Assembly: GCA_023920165.1 (NCBI GenBank)
Contig: CP089275.1
Location: forward strand, 496,001-560,000
Reading direction: 5' to 3'
Length of the DNA stretch: 64,000 nt
DNA from: Curvularia clavata
Lineage: Eukaryota
Numbering within the stretch: the stretch's first letter is position 1; each line of letters opens with the position of its first letter. The notes below the pieces were generated by a model. That model had not been told where the DNA came from. It saw only the letters and a program-made list of their open reading frames with translations, and did not search any database. Positions 7,418-58,378 of the stretch are shown here, piece by piece. The translations under genes and the position numbers were made by a program.

Positions 7418-7786
7418 TTTATATAGATCAAATTACTACTTGGGCAATACTTATCCATGTCCCTCGATAGTGGTGGAGCATACCCTTTCTTATTCCTTTG
7501 AATCTCTCCATACAACAAGTATATATTGCAGATATCAGGCAGTGCTTCACACGTATCTCCTCTTCTTAATCGCTCGAACTAGCTGGAACCTTGTAATAGG
7601 TTGATTGTCCCAAGCCAAGATGCATGGAAGCGCTGTGGCGGTCTCGGCTACCCACCCATCTCATGTGTCTCAGCCGCACCATTAAATAATAAGAGCTGGA
7701 CTCAGCCTCGATACAACAGGAAAACTTGATCACCATTCTCCTAGCCCCGAACCTTCATGCTACCTCAGAAATCCTAGAACAAAATA

Positions 7787-9693: not shown

Positions 9694-10284
9694 CATGTAG
9701 GTGCGTCTTGAGCAGGTGCGGCGACTCCACTGGGCGATACAACTTCCTAGTCAGCCTCATCATCAGTCCGGGGAGCCTTTTCATGCAGAAGTTCCCACAA
9801 AGAAGTAATTAATAGGCTTCCAATCCATTCGAGAAGATAAATTATATGAGTTCCCTCCTTGTACAGCCTTGGTGGCTTTGGTGTGGAGTCGAATATGATA
9901 TCAAAAAAATTTGCAATAGCCTTTTCTTGAGACAACTCGCTTTCATCTTCCTAGAAATGTGTTAAGGGACGTTTCAAAGGGATCTGAGTGTGTAGTTGGG
10001 CCGAGTAAGTGAAATCTGGGTGTTAGAGGTAGCACCTGGAGTGCATGAGCTACTTTGAAATGCTTTCCAAGACACCACAGTGTAATCCCCTGCTGGAAAG
10101 TTGATATTTTGTCCTTGAGGCTTCCTGATAATACTTTACTAAGTCGTGTGTTGAACTACTACACTGCGCTAAAACAAAGGTTTATGCGCGTGGGACATAC
10201 CCACCTCGCAAAAGTGCACAAGATCCTCCCTATTTTGTAAGTATGCAATTGTTTCAAGGCGATTGAATGCATTTATATCATATT

Positions 10285-12159
10285 CTAGGCTAAAGACTTT
10301 GAAAAGAGATAAGTAAAGATCATTGTGAACAAGCTCATAGCCAGTCCACCGATCCAGGATGCCTCTGCTTCTTCCCTCATCTTGTCACCGCTAACAAAGA
10401 GTACGACCCAAGCCCTGTTTCCCAGCCCCAAGACAGTTCCGGTGCACCAGCAGCTTTCATAGAAACCGATAAGCTCGAATATAGAACTCAGGATGATCCA
10501 GATGGCGTTGATAACGGCAATGGATTTACCAAAGAACCGCATAAGCACGGCGAGTCTACCAATCCACTTGATCTGGGCACTGCGAGGAACTTCGTACCTT
10601 GGACCTGTTGCTCCCTTTTGTCGCTCTGCCTGGTACATAAGCATCACGTGGTGCGACAGAAAGACTGATACTAGTAAAAGAATATGGGCGGACGTAGCAA
10701 GGACGCCGTACAGTAGATAACTCCCAGAGCGACATCCGAGGCCGCGCACCTCCGTCAGGTACGATATAACAATGGCAGATCCAGTAATGCCCCACTGCAG
10801 AAAGACAGCAATGACATTAGAAGTGACGAAGTTCCGCTTCCAGTCGGAGCTCGCTTTAACATCCTTCCATGTCATGTATGGCTCATCAATGTTGTGGGAT
10901 GAGCCTGCTTCGAGCTGCACTGTGTTATTTCGCTGAAGCTCTTGCATCGGCTTGGAAGTGTTTGCTTGGGCTTTCTGCGCCTCCAGCAAAGCGCGCTTTC
11001 TTTCGAACTCATCAACAATTCTGTTTCGTAGTTTTGGGTACGTCAATATCCGTGCATAGTTGTAAGCGGGGCCCTGACATGCTTCGTCTCCTTGCACTTG
11101 ACTCCATAACGCTTGGTGTATTACAGTCAACGGCGGGTTTATAAAGCCAGACTCGGCTTCCAGTGCTTTGATTGGAGCCGATTTCCCACGTATAATCTCG
11201 CCCTGTATTGCTTCGCGCACCGTGTTCTTCCGAGACTGTGTTCCAACAGCCATCCAACCCAAGACCACCGGAACTAACCATGTCCAAAGCGTGCCGGAGG
11301 AGAGCAAAAGAGCTTCTGAATGTTGACCGAGTGACGTAATATACGATCCAACGATAGTCAAAACCCATGCGACGACTGCAAAAAAGGTCTGCGCAAAGAG
11401 GGAAAAGGTGTATTGCCGGCGAGTGTTGTGGAGACGCTGTTCGAGAGGTAGCCATCGATCACGCAACCGCTCTGTATCCTCCTCAAACAGTTGTCGGAAC
11501 TGGTCCTCTTTGATTCTAATGGGGGACTGTTGAGAGCCGCGAAGGAAGTACTCAGCTGACTCTACTGCCTCTCTCAAATGTGATGTCGTTTTACCATTAC
11601 CGAATTTAGCTGCGAAAATTATCGAAGTTGAATGCGCATTTAGAGCTGTCGAAATAAGAGAGAAGGTAGTTAACATTGGACTTCCGACCGCTAGGCAGAA
11701 ACTTTCAAAGTTTCCGGATATGGAATCCGTCTCGTACGGTAGCTGCGCTGTGAGACCAAGCCACGGTAAGAAGTAGTTTGTCACGCCGGATAAGAAGATT
11801 GGAAAATCGAAGACCTGTTAGAAGTTAGCCCTGAAGATACACAACACGGAGTCCAAACCCCTGGTTATATGGGGCAAATCTTTAAGCGATAATTTTATTC
11901 AGTTGTGTTAGTAAAAGGATGACGATACCATAGGAAAGCTCTGCCTGTCACAGTACGTATGACAAGTCTCCATATCAATGCCCCATGCATTCCATACACT
12001 TTTGATTAGTTCCACAGGCTTTCGGCCATTCTGGGCGACCAAACCTCCAGCTATTTCTGTGAGGTTATCAGCCTCGAGAAGCTTGCGTGTACACTTTGCT
12101 GCCCATGATGAGCCCTCACTGATCGGTGTCAGAAAATCTTTCAGAGCTGAATCGTTCAT
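10285..12159 (-). CDS. Uncharacterised fungal multipass membrane protein, 2 exons
   Basis: Exons 12159-11929 and 11814-10285 join in frame across a GT-AG intron with CTAAC. NYFLPWLGLTAQLPY, GLGCRSGSYLLYG and GFYESCWC motifs, about 8 hydrophobic segments. Confidence 0.78.
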
Positions 12160-12744
12160 TTTATAGAAATTTGAAGGTTACATTCAGGTAACAAGTATGT
12201 ATTATGGGAGAGAGTGGACTTATCAGTCCCATCTTAAGGACAAGGCTGACAGGCAGCAGTTGCAGCAGTCTTGCGCGTCAAATGCGCACACCGGTCATCA
12301 ATGAACACGGGTAAATATGATGCGAATATTTGACGCTCCAATCAATCACACTCAGTTAAGTAGGTGGGGGCTGTGCTCTGTGCAGCCACACAGCTTATCC
12401 TCCAATCGCAAGGTGAGCTCGCAAGCCATATGACTTCAGAGAAGTGTGCTTATGATAGCGCATCTGGGGCGATTGGTGAAATAGGAAAATGGTAGCCTAC
12501 ACCGCAACTTAAAACCATCCAAAATTACAGAAGAGTAAGTTTTTGTAATTATAGCCAAATATTCTAAACAGCTTCAAGACCTTTAAGACTAGGATCTCTA
12601 GATTTTTGGAGAGAAACTTCCAATTGTCTGTAGATCTAATAGCTTATCTCCACAGTTGAGATTTTCGTTCTGATCTGACGGTTTCACCAGCCAACCAATT
12701 GAGGCAAAGGCTTCTCAGGGTCAATGATCAAATGCTGCGATCAT

Positions 12745-12997
12745 AAGAAGACTGATAGTAGCGAGCAATGAGTGTAAGATCGACTTATACCCTTCTAGGG
12801 CTCTAAGCTACCTAGGTTTATAATAGCAAGCAGTACATTCCCTTAGGAACCTTCGCAGCGCCCTCACTACATCACAGGTGCGCAGCGCCATTAGTAGGGG
12901 CTGAGTAGTCTAGCTATAGGTCTCTGGAGTTTTTATATCAAGCGATCCATCAGTGCGCCGATATCGCGGCACTATCAAGGGGTCGCGCCATTACAGC
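12745..12997 (+). repeat. Degenerate dispersed repeat, copy B (~250 bp)
   Basis: Same orientation as 7155-7417. Example: AAGAAGACTGATAGTAGCGAGCAATGAGT (B) vs AAGAAGACTTGTAGCAGCAAGCAATAAAT (A). Confidence 0.7.
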
Positions 12998-15089
12998 AAT
13001 ACTGCTTTAAGAAGATAAGCGCCACCGATGCGCTAAGCAACTTCACATGTAAGAAGATACATAACTGTTATGACTAGAAGGCCAACATACCACTGAATAG
13101 AATCCCAATTCAAAGTTGAAATAACCCAGAACAGAAACATGGACGGATATCCCGGCGGATGGCTGAGTGACATAGTGGTCAGCTTTTGGACTTGGCATGT
13201 GCCAAATTGCTGGAGAGCACCTGGCAGCTTTTTGCGTTTTGGTGGACTGCTTCTCATGTTGCGTTGATACTCGTGGGTTGAACATAGGGAAGCTATGTGG
13301 GAAACGGATATCTAAGGTCGAATAGGAATGCTGTCTCAGCGAAGTAAGTTTGTTTTGTCAAGCTGAATACACGTCGAGTCTTTGTGCCCTAATATGAATA
13401 TTCGGGAGACATCTACAATATCCTGAAGGAGATTAGTAGTTCAGAGCTTTGGCGTCTCCTATTTCCAAAACCGCCGAACTTTCCTCATGGAGGGGTTGCA
13501 GGCGGTTCGACCATCTACGTTACTAAACTATTAGGATCCTGGCTAGTTGACCTTAATTGAGGTGGCTACTTGGCACAATACATAATTGGACTCAAGAAAC
13601 CAAATAGTGACCTGCAATCAAATAGTTCAGTAGTAATTCTCAGTGATGAACTCAGTCAAGATGGTGAATTGAGTCAAAAGATCACTATCTTCACTAGAAA
13701 GAAATCCTAATCTGTACAAAAGGTCTAGTCACGTGCTACTTTATTACGTTACATATACTGCTCAACGCAGCGCACCATTAGATCATGGGTAATTCATGTT
13801 TTGTTTTAGTTGTTTAGGTTAGTAGTGTGAAAATGAACTCCGAGATGTGTATATGTTCCTACAATAAAACAACAGAGACAGTATACACCACTGCATGATG
13901 TGGCATTCAAGACGTTCCTCATTTCCAAGGCCAAGCTGACATTGCAACCATATTGCCATCTCTATCGCCGTAACTGTATCCAGCTTGAAAGCGCAAATGC
14001 CTAATTTACAGCCGAAATAGCAATCATGACCTCACGGATGGCTGTTCAATCTTCAAACTTTTAGAATCCTCTTGTACGCCTATTTGATAGCCGCTGGCGG
14101 TGATCTCGGCGCTATTTCAATTCCTTGCCTAGCCTTTTTGAAACATCTATACTTGAAATGGCCTAATACAAGGTCTACCTAGAGGTACGTGCACGGCTCG
14201 GTCACCGCTGGTAGGCCCTCGTTCAACAATGTTGTCTCAGGGTATGCTATTTCTACTGCGCTTCTTCGACAAGGCAGACACCGGTTGCAATGTTTCATTG
14301 TAATGTTCCATTGCGGGGTTTCTTTGCGATCCGAATTCTGTCATGACCCGGGAGGCCGCCTGAAATTTACACTCGTAGCTGGAAGGTGGTCTTGTTAGTG
14401 GCCATAAGCGACAACGGTATTTTTTCCAATTGGTGGCGATGAGATCTCGTCGACAGCGGGAGGATGGAAGCACTCTAAGAGGATCAGTCCAGACCGTGAC
14501 ATCTCCAACTTGCAGGACGCTAAAGTGAATTATGTCTCTACCGGCTGGCTGGGTCGACTTCGGTTAAGTTTTTCACAACTTTGTACCTGCTTGGTGTTTT
14601 AGCGACGGAATACATCGTTCCGCATTACACTTTTCTTGTTAGTAGGAAGGATGGGGTTATTCTTCGAAAGTCATAGAATTTACTGCTACGGCTACAGTTT
14701 TAGTCGGACTCATGTTGGCATAGTTGTGCAGGCTTAGCATTCAGGCTGAATAGTGTGTGTCGTGTGTTGTGTTTTTCAGGCGCCCTATTTTGGACCCTGA
14801 GGCCCCCCAAAGTCACGATACTTAGCCAATACCCAGTATATGGGGATTAAGGCGACCGACACACGTACAGTAAGCGTATACGATTGAGCAAAAGGCAGCT
14901 ATGCTCAGTAAATTAACAGATGTTGGCAGTGGAAAGTCAAGTTGAAGAGAAAAATATATAACTCTTGAACACACCCCTCTGCTTCTCTTCATCACACTCA
15001 CATCAGATTCTCTGATACAGTCTGAGCACATCAAATAAAGAATAATTTTTCAAGACCTCAAACTCAACAATCTCCGAGAAACCGCAACA

Positions 15090-46235: not shown

Positions 46236-47705
46236 CTACAACTCCTTCTTCAAAAAGTGCTCCGGGCGATGATCCGTCTCATAATCCACATGGACATAAG
46301 CACGCTCTACATCGGGCAAGCTCTCCAACTTCATCTGCAGCTCCTCTGCGACATCGTGGGTAGCACGCAGCGTAGCATCCGGGTCCATGACGATGTCGAC
46401 CTCGACAATGAGGCGGGGCCCGCTATGGTACGCGCGAACGGTGTCGATTTGCAGGATAGTCGGGGAGTGTGTCATTGCTAGTCTGTATGTTAGCATTGCG
46501 GAAGGGAAACCAAGGGGTGGGAAGGAAAAGAACGCACAGATATAAGTAATATGCTGTAGCATATTTGTATCAGCCGTGACGCCAATCAAGAGCTGGAATT
46601 CCGAATACGCAGTGCGACTCCAGAGGAAGATGATGAGAACGGAAAGTATCATTGCGCCCATGGGGTCTATCCACCATTTAAGTTTGGATCCGCCGACGCT
46701 GGTAAGCACACCGAAGCCATTGATGAAGAGGTCGTTGCGGTGGTCTTCCCATAGAATACGCACTTGGCTGTACTTGTTGCGCAGCGCCCAGCAGTACAGG
46801 AACAAGCTGAATTTTGTGGCAAAGGCGATGCTGACGGCTATCACGGAGGGGAGATAGAAGTCGTTGGTCTCGGGCCCGGAGTGCTCGGCGACGGTGCGGA
46901 TGGATTCGACGATGATGACGACCGAGACGGTGATCATGAGGGCGCAGAAACACAGGTTTCCGGCTGTCTCGATGCGTGCTTTACCAGAGGGGAACTTTCG
47001 CGCGTCGACGCGGGCTACGGCGCGGTTGCACAGGATCAGGGTTAGGTTGGATAAGGGATCGAAGAGCGAGTCGGCCATCGTGGTGAAGAGGGAGAGAGAC
47101 TGAGAGGATATGGCTGCGTAGAGCTGTAGCACGGCGAGCAGGATGTTGGCAGCGAAGGAGCCAATGACGGCGATTTTGTACTTGAGGTGGTTGGCATGGT
47201 CTTCTTCTTTGGCTGCGCGCCGGTGGTCGTCGACGGGCTTGAGGAGCCGCTCGATGTTTTCGTTCTGAGCAGAGTAGAATTCCTCGAGTTTCTTGGCCGT
47301 CCGCGCTTTGGAATTGAGGCTGATAGGGCCGCAACCATCGCGCTTCCGCGACGTGTTGGCTCGGATGAGGGCGAGTTCGGATTCGGGCTTGATGGCGGCG
47401 GCGAGTCGGTAGGGGTCCGTGTCGGATGTGTAGGCGGGTGGGGACTGTGATTCTACGTCTTGAGAGGCAGAGGCGGGGACATGGCGAGCATGGTGGTCGG
47501 TTGCGGTGGAGGGAGAGCGCTCAATGGCAGTACTACTGGCGGCGGGCTTGGCTTGGCCGGGTGCGCTGTCGACGTGCGAGGTGCTGTTGCTGCTGCTGGG
47601 GTGCAGATGCACGTGAGGGCTGGACGTGCGTTCAATGCGGTCCGGGTGCGTGTGGAAGGGATGCGGTTTCATAGAAATGGCATGGTGCAGATCGGGCTCC
47701 GTCAT
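46236..47705 (-). CDS. Cation diffusion facilitator (CDF, Mn-type MTP8/11-like) transporter, 2 exons
   Basis: SLFTTMADSLFD, WEDHRND, VRAYHSGP, VEVDIVM, ERAYVHVDYE..H.PEH. Probable 60-nt intron at 46478-46537. Confidence 0.92.
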   Translation of the reverse strand: MTEPDLHHAISMKPHPFHTHPDRIERTSSPHVHLHPSSSNSTSHVDSAPGQAKPAASSTAIERSPSTATDHHARHVPASASQDVESQSPPAYTSDTDPYRLAAAIKPESELALIRANTSRKRDGCGPISLNSKARTAKKLEEFYSAQNENIERLLKPVDDHRRAAKEEDHANHLKYKIAVIGSFAANILLAVLQLYAAISSQSLSLFTTMADSLFDPLSNLTLILCNRAVARVDARKFPSGKARIETAGNLCFCALMITVSVVIIVESIRTVAEHSGPETNDFYLPSVIAVSIAFATKFSLFLYCWALRNKYSQVRILWEDHRNDLFINGFGVLTSVGGSKLKWWIDPMGAMILSVLIIFLWSRTAYSEFQLLIGVTADTNMLQHITYICAFFSFPPLGFPSAMLTYRLAMTHSPTILQIDTVRAYHSGPRLIVEVDIVMDPDATLRATHDVAEELQMKLESLPDVERAYVHVDYETDHRPEHFLKKEL

Positions 47706-48527
47706 GGTTTCGCTGACGTAGTGGCGTGTCGTATCGCTATGACAGGGGCGCGTATGTTGGACGCTGCAAGAGAGAGAAAGAGGGCGAGAGAGAGGCGGAC
47801 GGTCAGCAGCAAGACGGACAAAAAGGTTATGTGCTTTTGCCAACGATTGCCAACAGCGCCCAGTTCACAGATTGGTAGCGGTGGAATAGGCCCGAGGGTG
47901 GCCAAGCTGCTAGGCTGCGATCGACGGAGGGCGGACCGCGCTTGGGACTTGGATGCTCTGCACGTGGGGAGGCGTGGTGGAGGAATTGAGGGGCACTTGC
48001 TGGGCTTGTCTGAATGTACGCGGGAACGAAGGCACGAGAACAAGCAGTTGCTATGCCACCACGGGGTTGGAATTGCAATGATTCTGTGTGCAGAGGCTAA
48101 ATAGTTCAATTTGCGAGGCGACCGCCCAACAACATCCGCTTTCCAGAGCTCGTAACGATACGCCATGTATACGTCCTTTATCGATAACGGTATACCCATC
48201 TTGGCTAGATGGTATATCACGTGATTATGGGCCCCACAATAACTATCGTGGAGTCTCCTTCATATCGGTGTTGACGTTTATTATTTTTTTACATCCTTCC
48301 GCTCTCGTTAAAGGAAGAGTCTTTGCTTGTTTACAATAATTAGCCACTCCCAAGTCAGAATGTTATATCACAGAGAACTAAAATAGGTCATTCGCCATCT
48401 CGTAGTGAATGCCTAGTTTACACATGCCCTTTAATAGAACTTAATAGTCTCAAGTAAAGAATGAGCAAAACTACGCAGCTAATTAATGTTATGTATCTCT
48501 ACAGACTTATGTCAGAAATACCACTCC

Positions 48528-50256
48528 TTAGCAAAACGGATCAAAGGTGTTTGGATCGTAGTCCCTCCCTTCTTCGCGCATCTCAACCTCGACTCTACTC
48601 TTCCATATCCCATCCGAAGCTCTCTTCTGCCATTTCTGGAACACACTATAATACCATATCTTTGTGCTGCCACCTGGCGAAACAAAAGTCACTTCGATTC
48701 GTTCAAGTGGGCTTTTCCGACCAAAGTCGTGCCACAAGCGCAGCATCAGGTCCCGGACAACCTTTTGTTTGATCTGAGGCGAGCCCCATTCATCTGGGCC
48801 TGGGTACGAGATGAGCTGGTATGAGTCATATTCCAGGTACATTTTGAGATAAAGCTGTCTGAGGTGGCGAAGCGAAGTCAACGCTGAGTGAATAGATCGA
48901 CCAGCCGCAGAGCTCGACGCTGTCCATGGCGAGTTACCATGCTTCTGTGGCCTGTAGCTGGCGAAGAGCTTCTTCAGACGTGCGACGGCCCATGTCTTCT
49001 GCGTAGCGCTTTCGTCCGGCCACACACTCAATTTATTATTTCCTTGCTTTTTCTGCACTTTCATTGGTAATCGTAATATCTCTATCTCTGGAGCTGTCTC
49101 TGCTAAAGCGTAAAAATGCTCGGGTTCCCATGCTACACTCTTCAAATAATCTGCCTCCAAACTGCGCAGACTCCGTCCATGCTTGGCCAGAAGTGTAGGT
49201 CGTACCTTTTGCATAGCATCGTCATCCAAACTGTGCATCCTCACGTTTCTCAACGCATCAATTGAATTTATAAAGCGCTCAAGAACCTCAATGTCATCGC
49301 TCGCATTCCAAAGGGCGCTGGCAGCCCCATAGTTGTTCTCGAAGCCAAACTTGATTGTCTTTAGCTGTGCAACACGTCCTGTCAATGCTTGAAAAAGGGC
49401 TGTCGGGGTACCCCAGCCAAAATCCAGGGTATGTAGTTGACTCCAATCCATGCAACGTGACCATATCTCGCAGTGCCCTGCAGTTGGAAAGTAATTCTGG
49501 AGCACTGGGTCTAACTTCAATTCTTCGAGTGCCGGGAATATATCACCGTCTCGAAACGGAAGGTTGAGTGGGCCTTCTCGAAGGTCATCGTTCGGTGCGC
49601 CGGAAGCGACACCAACGCGCAAACATAGTATCTTCAGGTTACGGGCTTGAAGCAGACAGCGTTTCAGCTCGTACATTTCCGAAAAGCAAATGGCCTGTGG
49701 TTGGTTTGCAAGAGCAGTAAAGTCCAGGTGGTGCAGATTTGAGGACGAGAGAATAGCTTTATCCATTTTATAAGGTCCACGATCATTGTTGATGTATGTA
49801 AGTCGCAAATTGGGACTATCTGCCAAGAGTGATTGTAACGAAGGTGGGAAAGGACATGGAGCCTCCCATCTGTAATGTGTCAGCCCTTATAACCGTAATA
49901 TGATCCTGTGGAATGTACATTATTTCTTTCAACTGCACCAAATGGCTCCAGCAGTCTACTAGTAGCCTCGCGAGCTCTCCACAAATCGTAGGATTCTGCC
50001 GGGGAGGTTTGACTCGAACACACTGCACTCTCTCGCCGACTGCCTCATTTGGTATGCTCATTCTTTGCAGAAATGTTCTTTCCACATCGTGCGCACCTGT
50101 GAGCGTGATATCACGAAAAAGGAACTCCTCGGAAAGACTTCTGCTTGCGCGACACGCCGCCCGAAGTGCGTGAAAAGCCGCATAATCGTAGTAAAAGAGC
50201 TGTGCAAAGATCTTGGAAATAACGCTCTGTGGTAGGGCGAGAAGTCGAGCAGGCAT
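48528..50256 (-). CDS. F-box-like / LRR-like hypothetical protein, 2 exons
   Basis: LLALPQSVISKIF..LRAACR..LFRDITL N-terminus. Intron 49870-49918 joins in frame (..KEIIWEAPCPF..LADSPNL). LRR-like L..L.L segments follow. Confidence 0.72.
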
Positions 50257-50701
50257 TTTCAGTGATGTGCGCATGTCTCGCGTAGGGGAAGATAAACGTT
50301 ATTGTGGCTGAAGGCAGCCTATCCTTGTTCAAGACGAGGGACTTTGTGTATGTCAGCACTAAACACAATCACGGTATACCCTGGCTATAGCTCCCTGAGT
50401 GTTACAATGGCAAAGTCAGTGCGAGTACCAATAGACTTTTGGAGAGATTATCATCGGCTATATAGTAAGTCAGATATTACTGTATTGCCGGTGAAGCCGA
50501 ATCCCTGGTCCAAGGTGACGGAGCCAGTGATACGTCAAGGGGCTGCGCTCTGGGCCTATTGCCGGAGCAGCTAAATAAGACATACGAGGTACTTAATGAA
50601 TTCCATGTTCGTATCCTCTCCCGGGCATTCTACGCACTCCACAAATCCAAAATAAAAAAAACGATTCTGTTTCTCGATAGCAGGCTTGTTGATTATTCGC
50701 A

Positions 50702-51739
50702 ATGTCAGGCTTCTTACAGTGCTTGTCACACACCCCTTTGATTGGGAAGTATAATCCAGCTGAGTCGGTCTTAGATGAAATCAGCAGCTACACGAGAGAA
50801 GTACGAAAACAGATCGAAAACTTTGACCCGCAGTTGGTCGTCTTGTCTGCACCTGACCACTTCAATGGCTTTTTCTATGACGTTATGCCACCATTTTGCA
50901 TTGGAATAGAGGCAAACTCCATAGGCGACTATGACACTCCCAAGGGCCCCGTTTGCACGGACAGAGACACAGCTGCGAGGCTGGCAGAGTACTGCATGGA
51001 AGATGATATCGATATTGCAGTCTCTCAGCGGATGCAAGTGGACCATGGATTCGCGCAGCCTCTGGACTTCTTACTCGGCGGTATCGATAAATATCCAGTG
51101 ATCCCCATTTTCATCAATTGTGTTGCTCCTCCTTTACCACTCTTCAAAAGGACAAGGGTATTTGGGGAGACGGTGGGCAAGTTCTGCAGTACGTTGGGCA
51201 AGAGAGTTCTCTTCTTAGCGTCAGGTGGGCTATCTCATCAGCCACCCTTGCCTGAGTACGCTACAGCAACGGAGGTTGTCAAACTTCAACTCTTAGGAGG
51301 TCAGAGGAACATGTCGCCGGAAGCTCGCGAAGCTCGAACCCTTCGTACTATCGAAGCTGCGAAAAGGTTTGTTGTAGATCAGAACACACTGCACCCACTA
51401 GCCCCAGAGTGGGACATGCAATTCATCAACAAAATCTCCGAAGGGAACATATCAGCACTGGATGACTTGAAAAACGACACTGTTACGGAGGTCGCTGGAG
51501 CTTCCACGCATGAGGTGAAAACCTGGGTAGCAGCAGCCTCAGCGATGTCAGTTTTTGGTCCATATGAGTCTCTTGGTCAATATTACAGACCGATTCCTGA
51601 ATGGATTGCAGGGTATGGTGGCTTTACTGCAAAATCCATGGAGAACAGAAAGAATACAGCCAGTAATTGCGATCACGACGTCAAGGCGCCGGGGCCTGAC
51701 CTTACTTCTTCTGCGGTAACGGCTCCACTACAATCTTAG
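50702..51739 (+). CDS. mhpB: 2,3-dihydroxyphenylpropionate 1,2-dioxygenase (3-carboxyethylcatechol dioxygenase; LigB/MhpB family), bacterial-type and intronless
   Basis: CLSHTPL, APDHFNGFFYDVMPPFC, MQVDHGFAQPL, SGGLSHQPP, LHPL, STHEVKTWVAA and YYRPIPEWIAG. H10, H53, H115, H179 and E271 fall at the residue numbers I recall for the catalytic and Fe-binding residues of E. coli MhpB. Confidence 0.93.
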   Translation: MSGFLQCLSHTPLIGKYNPAESVLDEISSYTREVRKQIENFDPQLVVLSAPDHFNGFFYDVMPPFCIGIEANSIGDYDTPKGPVCTDRDTAARLAEYCMEDDIDIAVSQRMQVDHGFAQPLDFLLGGIDKYPVIPIFINCVAPPLPLFKRTRVFGETVGKFCSTLGKRVLFLASGGLSHQPPLPEYATATEVVKLQLLGGQRNMSPEAREARTLRTIEAAKRFVVDQNTLHPLAPEWDMQFINKISEGNISALDDLKNDTVTEVAGASTHEVKTWVAAASAMSVFGPYESLGQYYRPIPEWIAGYGGFTAKSMENRKNTASNCDHDVKAPGPDLTSSAVTAPLQS

Positions 51740-51972
51740 ATTGGATTACCGACTGTCGCAGCCTACTTAGGGTCAGAAACAATGAGTTTAGCTGAGCAAA
51801 AGCAACAGTCGTTTCGCTATTTGATGTGCAGGCATGGAGCCCGCTCAGGAGGAACAACACCTCGAGTCGGCCATGCAATTCACTGTGAGTGCGTAGTAGA
51901 GACAGGACAAGATCCAGTTCTACCCTACAGCAGTCCTTCACTAGACTTGTTCTACAAAACAACGCATTGCCT

Positions 51973-52915
51973 TCATACAAGCAGGATGTTCTCATAAGTG
52001 CCTTTTCTGTCGAACAGCTGCTTGCGTTGTTGCCATTCCAGATCAAAAATAAACACCCTGTACATGTACCGGTATCCATTGCCACTGGGTCGAAGACCTA
52101 AAACCCAACGGCACTCGGGGATGAGATACAACCTGTCACCACGCCGCCAAGAGGGTAGCGAATCTTCAAACATATGCCCCACGATGTTTGATCCGATAAC
52201 AAGATCACAAGCTTGCTCGAAGAAGTTGCTTATTTTCGCAATCGAGGAAGAACTCGGCTCTTTGTGGATTACTTGCTGGGTGGGAACTCTGCGATCGCGT
52301 TTTTGATTTTTTCTTTTCCTCGGTTTTCTTTCGTACTGAAGGAACTCTTCCAGCGTCTCGATATGCTCGGATGAATATAAACCTTTCGTTGTATCGGTAT
52401 CCCAAAATTTGAGGCGGAGATAGTCCGGAAATCTTCGTAAGTGTGATTTTGCATCCGCGTGAGGTATGTGCATAGATCTCAGAGCTGCTAGGGTTCTCTC
52501 TTCGATCTCGAGAATTGCTTCGCGTAGCACGTCTGTGTCCTGCTTTTTTTGTACTGCCAGAACTTTTACCGTCATGATCACCTGTCTAAGCGCTAGCGCA
52601 TTGTATACTTTTATTTCAGTACATCTTACGTTGATGTCGTAAAAACTTTTCCGTCTTCTTTTTATACTTTGCAGTACAACCAGGACAAATATCAATCGAC
52701 GATCGGTTCTATATTTTTACCATTGAAGCACTTTGAACAAGGACATAATACTCAATTTCTGGCGTTACGTTGTTTTTATCCTTCCCACACCGTTGTTTTG
52801 ATTTCCATGTTGGAACGTAGGACGGTAACCCCTCGATGCTACTAGGCCCGCTTTCCAAGATCCGTATAAGGTATGATTGAGATTCAGGATCAAAAAGGAT
52901 CCAATCAACAACCAA
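51973..52915 (-). CDS. Hypothetical protein, exon structure unresolved
   Basis: A protein-like 240-codon frame plus an upstream 68-codon frame with candidate splice sites. No recognisable motif. Confidence 0.35.
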
Positions 52916-53116
52916 GCGATAGAAGTCGGCGGCGTCGTGAACACTAAGATATTATCATGGCAAACCCCCGCCCTAGGTGCAGTTGGTATGATCCGTTCAT
53001 GAGCGAGAATCTAAAGCAAGTTCACAAATACGGTCGGGATGGGATTTATCTATGCACTAGACAATGTAAGAATACGTAATGCTGAGCCAGTATTCCCCCT
53101 TCATGTGTCCTGTATT

Positions 53117-54967
53117 CTACGAAATCTCCCATTCTATGTCGGACGTTGTTTGAAGCAGCGCAGCTATGCTGCTCCGGATCTTGCAAGAATTATATCTCTT
53201 CGGATGTCCAAATATCTTGGCGTCAGGGTCCCAATGCCGAGAATCAAGCACGATGATGCCAGATCGTACGCGATACTCGCCCTCATGATTCCAGATCCAG
53301 ATGCAGCCCTTATACCCTGATTCATCGTCGTTGTCCCACCAATTGACCAATGCCAGCCTGTAAAGCCCAGTCTCAAGGCCAAGTAAGATTTGAGGAGCAT
53401 CTATTACTTCGGACAGCTTTACCGAACAATCGTGGTCTAGAAGAGAGTAGGGGAGATTGTTGTCTGAGGATTCACGTGGATAGTACGACAGCCAGTGAGA
53501 AGGAATTTCGGGAGCTTTAAAATGCAGCCTCGCTACCTCGGTCGTACAATGTACGTCGTCCATTGCGATTTGATGTTCCCGATCTTCGTTTGTAGTGAAA
53601 TGCGCATGTGCGATGTAAAAGCCGGCTTCGCAGCCCTTCCATCGGTCGTACATGGGGTACCAGGAGTCATGGAAATACACTCGACCCTTCCAGCCAGCCC
53701 AAGTCCATGATGGAAATCTCTGACGACGTATAGGATGGGCGTCATCCCTGTGGTACCATGACAGCGCACACACCAGGCTTTGTCTTCGAGCATCGATAAA
53801 GCGCAGATCTTCGAGCACAAGTGGCAAACCCATAACTGTCGTAGAGCGGTAGATGTCTTGGGATTTTGGGAATAGTAGGACGTTAACCGCTTCCACCACA
53901 CCCATCATCGCGTAAATGGCGTCATCGTCGTAGGAGATTTCCCTGCGGGTGTAGTCAGATATTAGATTGCACACAACTCTCATGTAATTGCTAGGGGTCA
54001 AGTAAGATAAATTCGCAAAATGTGAGCGTGGTCCAAAGGGCAAGCTACTCGAGACCTCGGAGAGTTTGGTCTCACGATACTCCCGCTTCTCATGTGCCTT
54101 CCACACCCCTGCATCAAGACTGAAAAGCTCCATACAAGACATAGTACGGCACTCTCAATAGCATTGGTCTTCAATGAAACAAAGTAGTCTTCGTGAAAGT
54201 CTGGCCTCCTGGAAAGTCCACCCGCGAGTACTCCATTTGCTGCCACTTATCTTTTCAACGACAGATGGAAACATTATAGATGGGAGCCGGAATTTGACTG
54301 GGCTTCTTGTCGCGCAAGCCCAGTCATCGTACGTATATCGTGATTGGTTCACTCCTGGAAGGCCATCATTCGCATTAAGTCCACAAGCGGCCACTATGGT
54401 CACTTCAGCTTGACTGTAAACAAGATGCATGTTGACCAGTTGTGAGGCTCTAGCGCTGTGATTCGTCTGCTCGATGCAATATTGATCTACCCAAAGGTAA
54501 TGAAACCCAATCTTCTTCGTGACTTCCATTGCATCCGTGATGACCGCAGATGCATTCGGTGGGACTTTGCCATCTTGTATAGGCGGCTGACTGACACCGC
54601 CCCAGACATAACTCAATGCAATGTACGGTTTTGAAAAATTATGTCGACGAATCTCGCGAGTGTTGCAATCGATTACGAATAGTTCGAACGGCGTCTGGTC
54701 CGGTCTTCGGCAGTGTGAATGTGAGTGATATTTTCTGCAATTTCGTAGCCACTGCTTGGCCACAGAACCATCGAAATACGTAGGTATTTCTTGCCTCTGC
54801 CAGCAGGTCTTTCGAGATGGGTACCAAGTGAACAGCTTTCTCAGTTCTTCCATATCGGCCAGATGAACGATAGCGTAGGACGTGCAAAGGCGAGGACCGG
54901 ATGGAGAGTGCGAGCGTCTTAGAAAGGTACAATTGCAATGTGACAACAGTGATTCAATAGAATTCAT
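53117..54967 (-). pseudogene. HET-domain gene (TOL-like) interrupted by one in-frame TGA
   Basis: YIALSYVWG, LWVDQYCIEQ, MHLVYSQA, RGWTFQE, then QCY*ECR (TGA at 54157-54155) continuing in frame to FPSWTWAGW. Confidence 0.85.
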
Positions 54968-56101
54968 ACGCCAGGCTGAGAATAAAATTAGCTACGAGGC
55001 TGAGGATGCAGAACCCCGCACAATCAAACTCAAGGCAGCCACATCGCGCACGACTAAGCTGGATTTGAAAGTCGGTGTAAGCGGTGCATCTTTGCATAGC
55101 CACCTTGTAAATTCAACGATTCTACCTACGAGGGATTGACTTACCTATTTTGCTCTGAAATTGAGCATCGTCTGAAATCATCATCTTCCATTAGCATTTC
55201 AGTGTTGTCGCAATTTATCGAACTCACTTGGGTTGCTCTAGTCGGCATCTAGGGATCCGAATCATAATGCGACCATGAATGAATTGTAATGTATAGGCAT
55301 TTAAATGCTGACATGACTTAGTGGTCGTGTAAACAGGACTCGGGTTCCACGCTACTTGATGCAGAAACGGTAATCCGCCATTCCATATTCAGTCACCCAA
55401 CTCCTTGTCGGGTGTCTTCCGGATACTGTTTTCTGTCAGCCACGGCATATAGGTCGTTACAACGTACTTCAAACCCCAAACTTTGAAAGAAATGCGAAGA
55501 AGTCGAGGCGCTATACTCAATCTGATTTCTTTCTTGGTGGCTCATTAGCTATGCTATAGGGTGACTAGCAGCAAGAAAGAGTATGCGTTGAAAAAACAGA
55601 AGAATCAAGAGCTTTTCACTCTGGTAGTAACTCGGCGGTGACTTTAGTGCGCAGGGGCAACAACAGAGCGGTACTTAATATTCTAGGTTTTCTTTGCGTC
55701 TTTGGACAGGGTATTCCCTTGATTTGGCTGCTTCAGGTGGCCAAAGACCCATAAATGGACTCACACAGACACTAGAAGCATAACAACGGTGTGACAGAGG
55801 CTAAGATCTCCTTTAGCGAGGCTCGGCGCTGGTGGTGGAAAATACAGCTTTTATCCGCGCAGCGATGTTCGTAGAAAGGCATAACGCTCGCTGATTGGTG
55901 AGGGCGCTGGTAATCAACAAACCTCCAGCGCTTAACGCTGGCTGGACCATTTCACAAAGTAAAAGGAGGGTAACAGTAGAAAACATAATCGGATAGATCC
56001 TTGTACGAACCGATTCGACCAACTCCACCGGTAGTCCTGGACTCTGCTCTGCGCTCTATTGGTGCACCAGTGTGAGGCCGACGCAAGGCTGTATATCCAC
56101 A

Positions 56102-56180: not shown

Positions 56181-56278
56181 AAAACGAGTTTAAACCCCTC
56201 CCATTCTCGCCGTTAATCTCGATCTTGGATTATCAACACACCTGGATATACCTGCCGAAAGACTGAATTCAGTTCAGA

Positions 56279-58378
56279 ATGTTATGTCAAACTTGTCTTA
56301 CTACAATCAAAGCTGCTTACGAACACTTGGATTTCGCCATTCCCTGGATAACATCTTGCCAGTCCCTACACACACCCAAAAACCTACTGTTTGATCTCTA
56401 TCTATCGGCCCTAAAAGGCTGTTGGGTTTGTCGACAACTGTGGGCACGGATTGTACCTCACGACAACAACAACATCACGGAGTATGAGAGCGACTTCTCA
56501 GAACAAGATAGCAACTCCGCTCAGCTTGATGATCGCCTTAAAACTGCATTCCAGTTTCTAAAGAGGCTGCGAAAGGGCAGAGATCAGCCGATCCAATTCG
56601 TGATGTCGCGCAAAGGTGCCTTCTTTACCCTGAGAGTAGGAAGATTGGATCTCGTTCTCAAGCCAACATCAACGAACGAAGCAGTTCTGAATACTTCTAA
56701 GAGACTCGATACCGCTAGCGGGTCATCTTCAGCGACAGGGAATCCCAAATTGTGGAGGCACTGGCTTCGTACCTGCTCAAGGACTCACAACAAGTGCCAT
56801 GGGTCGAATCACAAGCTGCAGCCATTCGCGCCTGATAGGCTTATCGAGGTAATTAGTGATGATGATGGGAATTCGTTCGCGTGGAGGCTTGTTTGTCGCG
56901 CTGACATTGGTAACGTTGAATACCTCACACTAAGCCATTGCTGGGGCTTATCTGTGCACACTAGCCTAACGAGGGAAACCTACTCTGTTTTTACAAGGAC
57001 CAACAAATCTTCCGGACTGCCCAAATCCTTCCAGGATGCATTTTGTATTACCTTCTCATTAGGATTTCGTTTCGTTTGGATCGATTCGTTATGTATCATC
57101 CAAGATGATCCAATGGACTGGAAAGCTCAAGCATCAATGATGCGATTGGTCTACCAAAATGCTTGCTGTAATATCGCTGCGACATGGGCAGCCGACGGCG
57201 ACGATGGCTGCTTTACGACAGGAGGATCCCAGATAATCACATTGGATCTCGGACACGGTGAATCAACCAAACACCAGCTATTTTCACGATTTCTCTACCA
57301 CGATGATAATACAGAAGCTCCACTTAACACACGCGGATGGGTCGCTCAGGAGCGATACTTGGCAAGGAGGCAGCTCAATTTTGCTAAGAGCCAGGTATAT
57401 TGGGAATGCCGAGAACTCATCGCTTCTGAACAATTTCCTGCAGGCATCCCAGAACCTTTACGGGACTTTCTGCCTTACAATCAAGCGTCACCACCCAATG
57501 GAAAGCCAACCTTGGCTTATACAAGTGAAGAAGAACGTCGTCAAGCCTGGGCCGCACTGGTGGACTTCTACTCAAATTGCAACTTTTCTAGATTATCAGA
57601 TAAAATGATTGCCCTTACTGGCCTAGCAGAAGATATGAGGCATGCAATGGGAGATGTATATCTGGCAGGACTATGGAAAAAAGATCTCCACAAGCAGCTA
57701 TGCTGGTCAACAGATTTTGATGTGCGAGCAAGAGTCAATCGCTCTAGGACACCAACCTACCTGGCGCCAACCTGGTCTTGGGCGAGTGTGGATGGGCCAG
57801 TGATGAGTGATCAGGCATATTACATCGCAAACATGGAAGTTTCACTTTGCATCGAGATCCTGGATGCATCCATCCTCTCAAGACACTCTTCTGGGCTACA
57901 TAGCTTCGTCGCATCCAGCTTAGTCCTGAGAGGAATCGCCTTTTGGGCTCAGGCTATCATGTTAGAAGGGTATGTCGACGGCCTTTGGGAACTTCAATTC
58001 ACTGATCTTGACAAAATTCCCTACTGCTTGATGAACATGCATGTCTCTATTCACTGGGATGAGAACATGTCTGGTTCCGAAGAGAATCCAGAACGATGGC
58101 CAAGTTTCCTTGAAGAGCGAAATTCAAATCTTCTATGTATGTTTGTGTATATCGATCTTGCGGATTTAGTCTCGAAGGGTTTATTGCTGAGAGCGGTACC
58201 TAGCGCAACAAATGAGGTTACATATGTTAGAATGGGCACCTTTACAGCCTGGGATGGAAGTATCTGTAATTTGTTGTCTGTGAGTCCCAATTATCCAATG
58301 GGTTGTTCAATTGCGGAAGATATAAATCTTGACGATGCTGGCTTAGCAGATTTAGTTCATACTGTTACTATTGTTTAA
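56279..58378 (+). CDS. HET-domain protein
   Basis: N-terminal C-x2-C..C-x2-C, YLTLSHCWG, VWIDSLCIIQDD, MRLVYQNA, PLNTRGWVAQE, QVYWEC, YLAGLW and APTWSWAS. 699 aa. Confidence 0.92.
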   Translation: MLCQTCLTTIKAAYEHLDFAIPWITSCQSLHTPKNLLFDLYLSALKGCWVCRQLWARIVPHDNNNITEYESDFSEQDSNSAQLDDRLKTAFQFLKRLRKGRDQPIQFVMSRKGAFFTLRVGRLDLVLKPTSTNEAVLNTSKRLDTASGSSSATGNPKLWRHWLRTCSRTHNKCHGSNHKLQPFAPDRLIEVISDDDGNSFAWRLVCRADIGNVEYLTLSHCWGLSVHTSLTRETYSVFTRTNKSSGLPKSFQDAFCITFSLGFRFVWIDSLCIIQDDPMDWKAQASMMRLVYQNACCNIAATWAADGDDGCFTTGGSQIITLDLGHGESTKHQLFSRFLYHDDNTEAPLNTRGWVAQERYLARRQLNFAKSQVYWECRELIASEQFPAGIPEPLRDFLPYNQASPPNGKPTLAYTSEEERRQAWAALVDFYSNCNFSRLSDKMIALTGLAEDMRHAMGDVYLAGLWKKDLHKQLCWSTDFDVRARVNRSRTPTYLAPTWSWASVDGPVMSDQAYYIANMEVSLCIEILDASILSRHSSGLHSFVASSLVLRGIAFWAQAIMLEGYVDGLWELQFTDLDKIPYCLMNMHVSIHWDENMSGSEENPERWPSFLEERNSNLLCMFVYIDLADLVSKGLLLRAVPSATNEVTYVRMGTFTAWDGSICNLLSVSPNYPMGCSIAEDINLDDAGLADLVHTVTIV

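What the first reader, a model, noticed from the sequence alone, without database searches (positions are those of the whole stretch)
50702..51739. Bacterial mhpB extradiol dioxygenase embedded alone in a fungal chromosome: candidate horizontal transfer
Seen: an intronless 345-aa ORF about 430 bp from an intron-containing fungal F-box-like gene and near fungal HET genes. No mhpA or mhpC neighbours are visible, and the ATG context (TTCGCAATG) has no Shine-Dalgarno sequence. Knowledge: the sequence is colinear, apparently without indels, with proteobacterial MhpB (the meta-cleavage enzyme of 3-(3-hydroxyphenyl)propionate/cinnamate catabolism). H10/H53/E271 (Fe ligands) and H115/H179 are retained, and about 30 aa are added past the bacterial-like ...MEN end. 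Fungi mostly use intradiol, gentisate or homogentisate ring cleavage. Inference: an intact captured bacterial gene may give this fungus a meta-cleavage route for plant phenylpropanoid catechols, with upstream and downstream steps supplied by fungal enzymes.
Basis: partly seen in the sequence, partly recalled or inferred. Interest (0 to 1): 0.88.

Follow-up and report, generated by a model that had tools for sequence, protein, structure and literature searches.

The report
Bacterial-type MhpB ring-cleavage gene in fungus
A fungus of the order Pleosporales carries an intact, apparently transcribed copy of a bacterial-type enzyme that cuts open plant-derived catechol rings; the gene belongs to a small, scattered fungal group that came from bacteria long ago, and in some other fungi it still sits beside its bacterial pathway partners.

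Summary
Window 50702-51739 (+) is an intronless 345-aa ORF that aligns without gaps to solved MhpB (8k04, E 8e-117). All catalytic residues are kept, and it lies in a clearly fungal chromosome. The transfer reading is right in kind but not in detail. The protein belongs to a monophyletic group of 21 fungal-type proteins (Zymoseptoria, Exophiala, Rhinocladiella, Fusarium, 12 unnamed; 59-88% identity). This group has 100/100 support and a long stem inside proteobacterial MhpB (54-58%). So the transfer is old and shared, not a private capture. GC3 (0.51) matches the host genes. DNA contigs from other studies bridge both junctions, which rules out a chimera. Contigs from two runs that also carry the neighbour gene's spliced form cover the whole ORF unspliced, pointing to transcription. 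New here: in a Rhinocladiella-like relative (L024) the gene sits between MhpC-type and MhpA-type genes, near an MhpD-type gene. In the window it is solitary, with no partner remnants in 64 kb. The window allele carries Ser49 where all 26 aligned relatives and four other runs have Phe. I found no paper describing this fungal clade. It is a new member of a known kind (bacterium-to-fungus metabolic gene transfer), of moderate interest.

The parts
50702..51739 (+). MhpB-type class III (LigB-fold) extradiol dioxygenase gene: 345 codons plus stop, no intron
   Evidence: no joint inside it, table 5
50622..51826 (+). Span covered by contigs of runs X5/X6, the runs that also hold the spliced form of the neighbour gene. 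X5 record 19 covers 50646-51810. X6 records 23 and 24 cover 50622-51634 and 51633-51826. Contig ends are not transcript ends.
   Evidence: table 8
50846..50848 (+). Codon 49, TCT = Ser in the window. The other four runs read TTT = Phe, and 26 of 26 aligned relatives have Phe.
   Evidence: (table 3, place 50847)
51644..51736 (+). C-terminal tail (residues 315-345) beyond the end of bacterial MhpB. It is present but poorly conserved in most fungal members, and absent in the Fusarium group.
50275..50701 (.). 427-bp divergent intergenic region between the MhpB ATG and the ATG of the minus-strand neighbour
48528..50298 (-). Fungal neighbour gene of no known family, with a 49-nt GT..AG intron at 49870-49918. 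It is much more polymorphic between runs than the dioxygenase.
   Evidence: table 5 joint; table 8 records 18, 22

Best explanation
The ORF encodes an Fe(II)-dependent MhpB-type extradiol catechol dioxygenase (3-carboxyethylcatechol 2,3-dioxygenase).

Origin: it descends from one old transfer of a proteobacterial mhpB into filamentous ascomycetes. Today it survives in a few scattered lineages: Pleosporales (this window), Zymoseptoria, the Chaetothyriales genera Exophiala and Rhinocladiella, and Fusarium. The patchiness arose by loss, by fungus-to-fungus spread, or both. The gene has been domesticated: host-like codon composition, its own mRNA, and a fungal-specific C-terminal tail.

Inferred mechanism: it binds iron through H10/H53/E271. 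It uses H115 as acid and H179 as base to cleave 2,3-dihydroxyphenylpropionate or 2,3-dihydroxycinnamate next to the diol. This gives the 2-hydroxy-6-oxonona-dienedioate ring-fission product.

Context: in some fungal relatives the gene is still flanked by MhpA-type hydroxylase, MhpC-type hydrolase and MhpD-type hydratase genes, so a bacterial-style pathway exists in fungi. In this fungus the gene stands alone, and its partner steps, if any, must be encoded elsewhere.

Shown: identity, integrity, chromosomal integration, clade structure, presence in RNA-type contigs.
Inferred: substrate, in vivo role, number and direction of later transfers.
For: Family identity:
- PF02900; NF009910 above its cut-off; gapless match to 8k04.
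- Catalytic residues are invariant in 27 of 27 sequences. The roles of H115 and H179 come from passages in PMC5291488 and PMC3962378 citing Mendel et al. 2004.

Fungal clade:
- 21 rows, SH-aLRT 100.
- 19 rows, 100/100, stem 0.55. This clade lies inside a 58-row clade (100/99) with Pseudomonas, Marinobacter, Halomonas and Lampropedia MhpB. Burkholderiaceae-type MhpB lies outside it.
- At 50% clustering, the best representative is only 54% identical.

Fungal host:
- Pfam hits on neighbours.
- The importin-beta ORF is 91% identical to Setomelanomma holmii and 79-84% to other Pleosporales.
- The exact protein sits on a 5.88-Mb contig.

Junctions: X3 record 4 (49626-51061), X3 record 8 (51160-52931) and X4 records 10 and 11 bridge both sides.

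Composition: GC3 is 0.507, against 0.438-0.694 for 15 window ORFs and 0.69-0.86 for 5 bacterial relatives.

Transcription: X5 and X6 hold the neighbour's intron-less joint and also contigs covering the whole ORF.

Cluster in relatives:
- L024 carries MhpC-type (1u2e, 4.4e-125), MhpA-type (NF004827, 777.9 bits) and MhpD-type (NF008461) genes around MhpB.
- In E. oligosperma the MhpB and MhpC locus tags are adjacent. For 7 MhpB entries, an MhpC-type protein lies on a contig of identical length.
Against: - Strict nesting among the 39 closest bacterial sequences is not significant. The AU test does not reject a tree with them as one clade excluding the fungi (delta lnL 15.2, p 0.14). The sister relation to P0112 is weak (91/63). 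So no donor genus can be named.
- The order inside the fungal clade is unresolved in the careful tree. Loss and fungus-to-fungus transfer cannot be told apart.
- No partner gene lies in the 64 kb. No Pleosporales MhpC-type protein is among the best 120 of 2502 hits. A complete pathway in this fungus is therefore unsupported.
- The window allele has Ser49 at a position that is Phe in all 26 relatives and in four other runs. This particular copy may be impaired, or the base may be an assembly error.
- Both differences from the other runs inside the ORF change the protein.
- X5 and X6 are only guessed to be RNA and come from one study. Contigs cannot give expression level.
- The scores for NF009908 (434 vs 467) and NF009907 (419.8 vs 549) fall below their cut-offs.
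Confidence: 0.75

Rival explanations
1. Recent, private capture: this fungus itself took the gene directly from a bacterium.
For: The gene is solitary and intronless. It aligns to bacterial MhpB without indels.
Against: The closest relatives are 20 other fungal-type proteins at 59-88% identity. The best bacterial hits reach 54-58%. The fungal clade is monophyletic on a stem of 0.55-0.57 substitutions per site. GC3 is host-like, far from the 0.69-0.86 of bacterial relatives.
Confidence: 0.04
2. Contamination or chimeric assembly: a bacterial contig was joined to fungal DNA by error.
For: None beyond the bacterial affinity of the protein.
Against: DNA contigs of runs from other studies (X3, X4) cross both junctions. 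Composition matches the flanks. The contig is 5.88 Mb. The same gene occurs in several fungal genomes.
Confidence: 0.01
3. Orphaned relic: the gene once belonged to an mhp-like cluster. It lost its partners in this lineage and is now drifting, transcribed but without a useful role.
For: There are no partner genes or remnants in 64 kb. No Pleosporales MhpC-type hit is among the best 120. The window allele has Ser49 at an otherwise invariant Phe, and both ORF differences between runs are nonsynonymous. In L024 the MhpD-type gene is itself broken by a frameshift, so such clusters do decay.
Against: The frame is open over 345 codons with every catalytic residue intact. The ORF differs from other runs at only 2 of 1165 bases, against 35 of 853 in the neighbour gene (table 8). 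A relative at 88% identity (P0002) is also intact. The other four runs carry Phe49.
Confidence: 0.15
4. Re-purposed enzyme: the solitary copy cleaves a different catechol. Examples are a secondary-metabolite intermediate or a plant defence catechol. It would serve detoxification or biosynthesis, not an mhp-type catabolic route.
For: The gene is solitary, without the hydrolase needed to process the ring-fission product. The fungal clade has its own substitutions and a new C-terminal tail. Recalled, not tested here: other fungal LigB-fold enzymes (DOPA-type) act in pigment biosynthesis, as also stated in PMC12420386 (passages).
Against: There is no biosynthetic gene (PKS, NRPS, P450) next to it in the window. 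Sequence conservation with MhpB runs end to end without gaps, active-site residues included. In relatives the gene keeps MhpA/MhpC/MhpD-type neighbours.
Confidence: 0.1

Closest known systems
Escherichia coli MhpB (2,3-dihydroxyphenylpropionate 1,2-dioxygenase; PDB 8k04, 9kti) and the Pseudomonas/Marinobacter/Halomonas 3-carboxyethylcatechol 2,3-dioxygenases
   Same: LigB fold. Full-length gapless alignment (2-312 on 2-312). Identical positions of H10, H53, H115, H179 and E271. 54-58% identity to the gammaproteobacterial enzymes.
   Different: Encoded in a fungal chromosome as a single gene with its own transcript. It has a tail of about 31 aa, host-like GC3, and no mhpA/C/D/E/F neighbours in the window.
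Fungal-type MhpB group found here: Zymoseptoria tritici, Exophiala aquamarina, E. oligosperma, Rhinocladiella similis, Fusarium beomiforme, F. austroafricanum, F. sp. DS 682, and 12 unnamed entries
   Same: One clade (100/100). Shared fungal substitutions. Most members have the tail. Intronless in the one relative whose DNA was seen, L024.
   Different: The window protein is 59-72% identical to all of them except P0002 (88%). It is the only member traced here to Pleosporales. It lacks the MhpC/MhpA/MhpD neighbours seen in L024 and implied for Exophiala. It carries Ser49.
Fungal DOPA-type (DODA) LigB-fold extradiol dioxygenases
   Same: Same superfamily (PF02900), and they occur in fungi. According to PMC12420386 they are the only LigB-type clade that survey identified in fungi (passages).
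   Different: The window protein's significant PDB and NCBIfam matches are MhpB, LigB and gallate dioxygenases. No DOPA-type entry appeared at E <= 0.001. It groups with bacterial MhpB, not with a fungal-wide family.
E. coli mhpABCDFE operon (3-hydroxyphenylpropionate meta-cleavage pathway)
   Same: The relative L024 has MhpC-type, MhpB, MhpA-type and MhpD-type genes within 5.4 kb (7627-12998).
   Different: Gene order and strands differ: C(+) B(+) A(-) D(-). The aldolase nearby is HpaI-type. Fungal genes (P450, a Fungal_trans_2 factor) are interspersed. The MhpD-type gene is frameshifted. None of this is present in the window.

Membership tests
MhpB (3-carboxyethylcatechol 2,3-dioxygenase), class III extradiol dioxygenases | LigB catalytic domain over the whole protein | tested here: met
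   PF02900, E 3.3e-48, residues 7-304 on profile positions 4-267 of 269
MhpB (3-carboxyethylcatechol 2,3-dioxygenase), class III extradiol dioxygenases | Score above NCBI's curated equivalog cut-off | tested here: met
   NF009910: 392.6 bits against a cut-off of 291. Two sister equivalog models fall short: NF009908 434 vs 467, and NF009907 419.8 vs 549.
MhpB (3-carboxyethylcatechol 2,3-dioxygenase), class III extradiol dioxygenases | Colinear with an experimentally solved MhpB | tested here: met
   8k04_A, E 8.2e-117, 2-312 on 2-312 with no gaps
MhpB (3-carboxyethylcatechol 2,3-dioxygenase), class III extradiol dioxygenases | Catalytic acid His115 and base His179 | tested here: met
   Both are invariant in 27 of 27 sequences. 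Their roles are taken from passages in PMC5291488 and PMC3962378.
MhpB (3-carboxyethylcatechol 2,3-dioxygenase), class III extradiol dioxygenases | 2-His-1-carboxylate iron site | tested here: inconclusive
   H10, H53 and E271 are invariant. H53 aligns with His61 of LigB 1b4u_B. That these three are the ligands is recalled and inferred by homology, not read from a structure here.
MhpB (3-carboxyethylcatechol 2,3-dioxygenase), class III extradiol dioxygenases | Cleaves 2,3-dihydroxyphenylpropionate / 2,3-dihydroxycinnamate | not testable with these tools
   Needs an enzyme assay.
mhp catabolic gene cluster | Adjacent mhpA, mhpC, mhpD (and E, F) genes | tested here: not met
   In a tblastn of 14 L024 proteins against the window, only mhpB hit; all others had E >= 0.011. 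The feature is met in the relative L024 for the A, C and D types.
Bacterium-to-fungus horizontal gene transfer | Recipient sequences form a clade inside the donor domain's family | tested here: met
   The fungal clade (100/100) lies inside a 58-row clade (100/99), with further bacterial MhpB outside it. Nesting among the 39 closest bacterial rows is not significant (p-AU 0.14).
Bacterium-to-fungus horizontal gene transfer | Patchy distribution in the recipient group | tested here: met
   There are 21 fungal-type entries, with names from 4 genera in 3 classes plus the window. No other named Pleosporales appears. Only called proteins of public records were searched, not all fungal assemblies.
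Bacterium-to-fungus horizontal gene transfer | Physical integration in the host chromosome, not contamination | tested here: met
   Fungal genes lie on both sides. The contig is 5.88 Mb. Junction-spanning contigs come from other studies.
Fungal DOPA-type (DODA) LigB dioxygenases | Closest sequence relatives are DOPA 4,5-dioxygenase-type proteins | tested here: not met
   Only 4 distinct PDB sequences match at E <= 0.001: MhpB, LigB and two gallate dioxygenases. The NCBIfam best hits are all MhpB models.

The most novel reading that the evidence does not exclude
A whole proteobacterial mhp catabolic block (mhpA, mhpB, mhpC, mhpD) entered a filamentous ascomycete as one piece and has since moved among or been eroded in distant fungal classes. 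The black-yeast relatives keep a bacterial-style meta-cleavage pathway for phenylpropanoid catechols. The Pleosporales copy in this window is a dispersed survivor that still feeds a fungal route for such compounds. This would be a fungal extradiol pathway of a type that a 2025 cross-kingdom survey did not detect.
Probability: 0.3. Interest if true: 0.7.

Novelty: new member of a known kind. Interest (0 to 1): 0.5.

Why it matters
Extradiol (meta) cleavage of catechols is regarded as a bacterial speciality. A 2025 cross-kingdom survey states that it is 'limited in fungi' and found only a DOPA-type LigB clade there (PMC12420386, passages). This finding adds three things:
- an MhpB-type clade in ascomycetes;
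- evidence that it came from Proteobacteria;
- evidence that in black-yeast relatives it sits with MhpA-, MhpC- and MhpD-type genes.

This gives a concrete, testable candidate for a fungal meta-cleavage route for plant phenylpropanoid breakdown products. It is also a possible case of multi-gene bacterium-to-fungus transfer. For this particular window the gain is more modest: one more domesticated bacterial metabolic gene, already present as an annotated protein in public databases.

Tried and rejected
- Whole-genome search for partner genes: no genome is held for this window. Whether MhpA/C/D-type genes exist elsewhere in this fungus stays open.
- Scan of bacterial genome contigs with the single protein: it returned 22 mostly distant relatives (23-51% identity) and none of the closest Pseudomonas-type genes. 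I used these only as named outgroups.
- Sequencing-run search: no listed holder is on record as RNA. X5 and X6 are RNA only by the tool's guess.
- In X5 and X6 there is no cover over 50316-50569, although X3 and X4 cover it (table 2).
- CAI-like codon index: uninformative. GC-rich bacterial genes scored as high as host genes. Only GC3 was used.
- AU test for strict nesting among the closest bacteria: not significant, so I dropped any claim of a donor genus.
- The quick tree suggested Zymoseptoria, then the window, at the base, with Fusarium nested among Chaetothyriales-like rows. The careful tree leaves these forks open, so I do not claim an order of fungal transfers.
- I first read the two MhpD-type ORFs of L024 as exons split by an intron. 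The sequence leaves only about 10 nt between them, so it is a frameshift with a small deletion, not an intron.
- Literature searches for a description of fungal MhpB found none. For some searches I saw only listings and abstract starts. Subscription journals are not covered.
- Earlier scan notes hold only E. coli mhp operon notes and nothing fungal.
- A structure prediction was not run, because a 393-bit match to a solved MhpB made it unnecessary.
Full report
**The observation**

The window holds, at 50702-51739 on the + strand, an uninterrupted ORF of 345 codons. Its ATG is the first in frame, three codons after an upstream stop. The sequence before it (…TTCGCAATG) has no Shine-Dalgarno-like purine run.

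The protein has a LigB catalytic domain over its whole length (PF02900, 3.3e-48). It passes NCBI's curated cut-off for one of the three MhpB equivalog models (NF009910, 392.6 vs 291 bits). It falls just short for the other two: NF009908 at 434 vs 467, and NF009907 at 419.8 vs 549.

Against solved structures its best match is MhpB (8k04), with E 8.2e-117 and residues 2-312 aligned on 2-312 without a single gap. The only other matches at E <= 0.001 are LigB and two gallate dioxygenase sequences. This includes the extra tail of about 31 residues beyond the bacterial end.

**The host and the integrity of the locus**

The rest of the window is plainly fungal. It holds three HET-domain ORFs, importin-beta, PP2C, a cation-efflux protein, a Fungal_trans factor and a sugar transporter split into two ORFs. 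The importin-beta ORF is 91% identical to Setomelanomma holmii, 84% to Phaeosphaeriaceae sp. PMI808 and 79-83% to other Pleosporales. This places the host in that order of the Dothideomycetes.

The exact protein is already in NCBI/UniRef, on a contig of 5,880,203 bp. I laid contigs of four public runs on 49300-53100:
- A run with another organism label and from another study (X3) has one contig from 49626 to 51061 and another from 51160 to 52931.
- X4 has contigs 49712-50518 and 50489-50731.

Both junctions between the dioxygenase and its fungal flanks are thus bridged independently of the assembly, and no indels were reported. GC content is flat across the region. The ORF's GC3 (0.507) lies within the range of 15 fungal ORFs of the window (0.438-0.694), far from the five bacterial relatives measured (0.69-0.86). 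Contamination or chimerism can be set aside.

**Transcription**

Two runs carrying the same species label as the probable source (X5 and X6, one study, guessed by the tool to be RNA) each hold a contig of the upstream minus-strand neighbour. That contig skips 49870-49918. The skipped piece is 49 nt with CT..AC ends on the + strand, which is GT..AG on the gene's own strand. X3 and X4 show no such joint (table 5). These runs therefore contain spliced RNA.

In the same runs, one contig covers 50646-51810 (X5). In X6, two contigs cover 50622-51634 and 51633-51826. Together they span the entire ORF, with 56-80 nt before the ATG and 71-87 nt after the stop, and no joint inside (table 8). This points to an unspliced, single-gene transcript. 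Three limits apply:
- contig ends are not transcript ends;
- no expression level can be read;
- DNA carry-over in these libraries cannot be excluded.

**Relatives and phylogeny**

A search of 5.8 billion protein clusters gave 1429 hits, of which the best 120 were listed. The top 19, plus one cluster member (P0122, Rhinocladiella similis), are 59-88% identical to the window protein. Those that carry names are from Zymoseptoria (2), Exophiala (2), Fusarium (3) and Rhinocladiella (1). Twelve are unnamed. From rank 20 down the hits are 54-58% identical, and the named ones are Pseudomonas, Marinobacter, Halomonas, Zestomonas, Lampropedia and compost metagenomes. In a library clustered at 50% identity, the best representative is 54% identical. 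So the fungal proteins are not separated from the bacterial MhpB cluster at that level.

The first tree (quick search, LG+C20 PMSF) had 87 rows:
- all 21 fungal-type proteins;
- 38 of the 101 bacterial-type hits (every named one and every fourth unnamed one);
- 21 deeper representatives;
- 7 named genome loci.

It puts the 21 fungal-type rows in one clade (SH-aLRT 100, stem 0.57).

The careful tree had 64 rows. Before building it I dropped 21 long-branch or distant rows and the two defective rows P0018 and P0020. It gives the 19 remaining fungal rows 100/100 support (stem 0.55). It places them in a 58-row clade (100/99) with the Pseudomonas/Marinobacter/Halomonas/Lampropedia sequences. Cupriavidus- and Paraburkholderia-type MhpB lie outside. 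Its bootstrap had not fully settled (correlation 0.985).

Three limits apply:
- The sister relation to the unnamed P0112 is weak (91/63).
- An AU test does not reject a tree in which the 39 closest bacterial rows form one clade that excludes the fungi (delta lnL 15.2, p 0.14).
- The branching order inside the fungal clade is unresolved in the careful tree.

The safe reading is one origin of the fungal group from within proteobacterial MhpB. There is no named donor and no resolved history among fungi. Because no other named Pleosporales appears among the hits, the distribution is very patchy. However, only called proteins of public records were searched.

**What the relatives add: a cluster**

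One fungal-type protein (P0019, in the same 90% cluster as the Rhinocladiella similis protein) lies on a 91-kb metagenome contig, of which 21 kb were fetched (L024). There too the gene is one uninterrupted match. Its neighbours are as follows:
- **8800-9720 (+):** an alpha/beta hydrolase immediately upstream. Its best solved match is E. coli MhpC itself (1u2e, 4.4e-125, colinear).
- **11322-12998 (-):** a 558-aa flavoprotein immediately downstream. It matches the MhpA equivalog model end to end (NF004827, 777.9 bits, model positions 13-540 of 554; below that model's cut-off of 966).
- **7627-8704 (-):** two ORFs that together match MhpD (NF008461, positions 5-142 and 148-262 of 269; best structures 8ih6, 2wqt, 1sv6).
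- **Further out:** an HpaI-type aldolase fragment, a split aldehyde dehydrogenase, a P450, an SDR, a KstD-like flavoprotein and a Fungal_trans_2 factor.

Only about 10 nt separate the two MhpD-type reading frames. That gene is therefore frameshifted with a small deletion, either by decay or by assembly error, and is not split by an intron.

A search with the MhpC-type protein found 11 fungal-type relatives (70-100% identity) above the bacterial ones (67% and lower). They include Knufia peltigerae, Exophiala aquamarina and Exophiala oligosperma. In E. oligosperma the locus tag (LTS17_009965) is adjacent to that of its MhpB (LTS17_009964). For 7 MhpB entries (P0005, P0006, P0008, P0009, P0014, P0016, P0019), an MhpC-type protein lies on a contig of identical length. 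No Pleosporales, Zymoseptoria or Fusarium name is among the best 120 of the 2502 hits.

In the window, a tblastn with 14 L024 proteins found only mhpB (1.45e-140). Everything else had E >= 0.011. The window's gene is thus a solitary member of a family that, in black-yeast relatives, forms a bacterial-style mhp cluster.

**Function**

H10, H53, D114, H115, H179, H270 and E271 are invariant in all 27 aligned fungal and bacterial sequences. His115 and His179 are the catalytic acid and base of E. coli MhpB. I take this from passages in PMC5291488 and PMC3962378, both citing Mendel et al. 2004. H53 aligns with His61 of LigB. That H10, H53 and E271 are the iron ligands is recalled and inferred, not tested here.

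From established knowledge of the mhp pathway, I infer the following. The enzyme cleaves 2,3-dihydroxyphenylpropionate or 2,3-dihydroxycinnamate next to the diol. In bacteria the product is then hydrolysed by MhpC. Neither the N-terminus (which starts as in bacteria, with ligand H10) nor the tail (…APLQS) suggests a targeting signal. That is inference only.

The tail is present in most fungal members, poorly conserved, and absent in the Fusarium group and in P0014, P0015 and P0017.

**A blemish in this copy**

Inside the ORF the window differs from all four laid runs at two places (table 3):
- 50847 C>T changes codon 49 from the window's Ser to Phe.
- 51476 G>C changes Asp259 to His.

Position 49 is Phe in all 26 other aligned sequences and lies four residues before H53. 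Position 259 is variable. The reference allele may therefore be functionally weakened, or the base may be wrong.

Against decay, the ORF contig of X5 differs at 2 of 1165 bases, whereas the same run's contig of the neighbour gene differs at 35 of 853 (table 8).

**Comparison with what is known, and novelty**

The enzyme is a member of the MhpB family by every sequence test I could run. The operon context, a feature of the bacterial system, is not met in the window.

Bacterium-to-fungus transfer of metabolic genes is a well-known phenomenon, so this is a new member of a known kind. I found no paper that describes an MhpB-type clade or an mhp-type cluster in fungi (searches; open-access library only). 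The 2025 cross-kingdom survey PMC12420386 reports only a DOPA-type LigB clade in fungi and calls fungal extradiol cleavage poorly characterised (passages). Its supplementary trees were not read and could contain these sequences. Several of the proteins are already named '2,3-dihydroxyphenylpropionate 1,2-dioxygenase' in NCBI records, so their existence is visible in databases. Earlier notes of this scan concern only E. coli mhp operons.

**Verdict**

- The horizontal-transfer interpretation is supported in kind. It should be re-dated: the transfer is old and shared by a scattered fungal clade. It should also be re-framed: the gene is part of a cluster elsewhere and solitary here.
- The physiological role in this fungus remains inferred.
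- Interest is moderate (0.5). It would rise if the block-transfer reading and enzyme activity were shown.

Noticed in passing
window 49300-50300 versus 50646-51810: There is a sharp step in between-run divergence. The X5 contig of the minus-strand neighbour gene differs from the window at 35 of 853 bases (about 4%), and X3 record 4 at 34 of 1436. The dioxygenase contig differs at 2 of 1165, and X3 record 8 (51160-52931) at 2 of 1772. The same variants recur in all four runs, so the window carries a distinct haplotype of the neighbour gene. That gene sits near HET genes, so this could be a highly polymorphic, possibly allorecognition-linked, locus.
   Followed up: partly
L024 7627-12998 (and 3405-3878, 15451-19105): A Rhinocladiella-like fungal contig carries MhpD-type, MhpC-type, MhpB and MhpA-type genes side by side. 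Nearby are an HpaI-type aldolase fragment, an aldehyde dehydrogenase and a KstD-like flavoprotein (652 bits to a 3-ketosteroid dehydrogenase model). This is a candidate multi-gene block of bacterial origin in a fungus.
   Followed up: partly
L024 7980-8075 (minus strand): The MhpD-type gene changes frame between '…EIVGS' and 'LVDTISDNAS…', with only about 10 nt in between and about 5 model positions missing. This is a frameshift plus deletion (decay or assembly error), not an intron.
   Followed up: yes
protein P0018 (residues about 54-98 in alignment A1): One fungal-type MhpB has a garbled stretch where all others are conserved, then returns to the family sequence. This looks like a double frameshift, either in a pseudogene or from a sequencing error.
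   Followed up: no
proteins P0399 and P0404: Two different MhpC-type proteins (77% and 72% identical to the L024 one) lie on contigs of the same length (43382) as the MhpB entry P0008. This suggests a duplicated hydrolase in that fungal cluster.
   Followed up: no
window 4856-6931, 53117-54991, 56267-58378: There are three HET-domain ORFs within 64 kb. The middle one is split into two adjacent stop-to-stop ORFs (53117-54154 and 54155-54991), with the HET domain in the upstream part.
   Followed up: no
window 47001-48000: A local GC peak (0.607) with strong GC skew (+0.334) lies over the 5' part of the cation-efflux gene on the minus strand.
   Followed up: no
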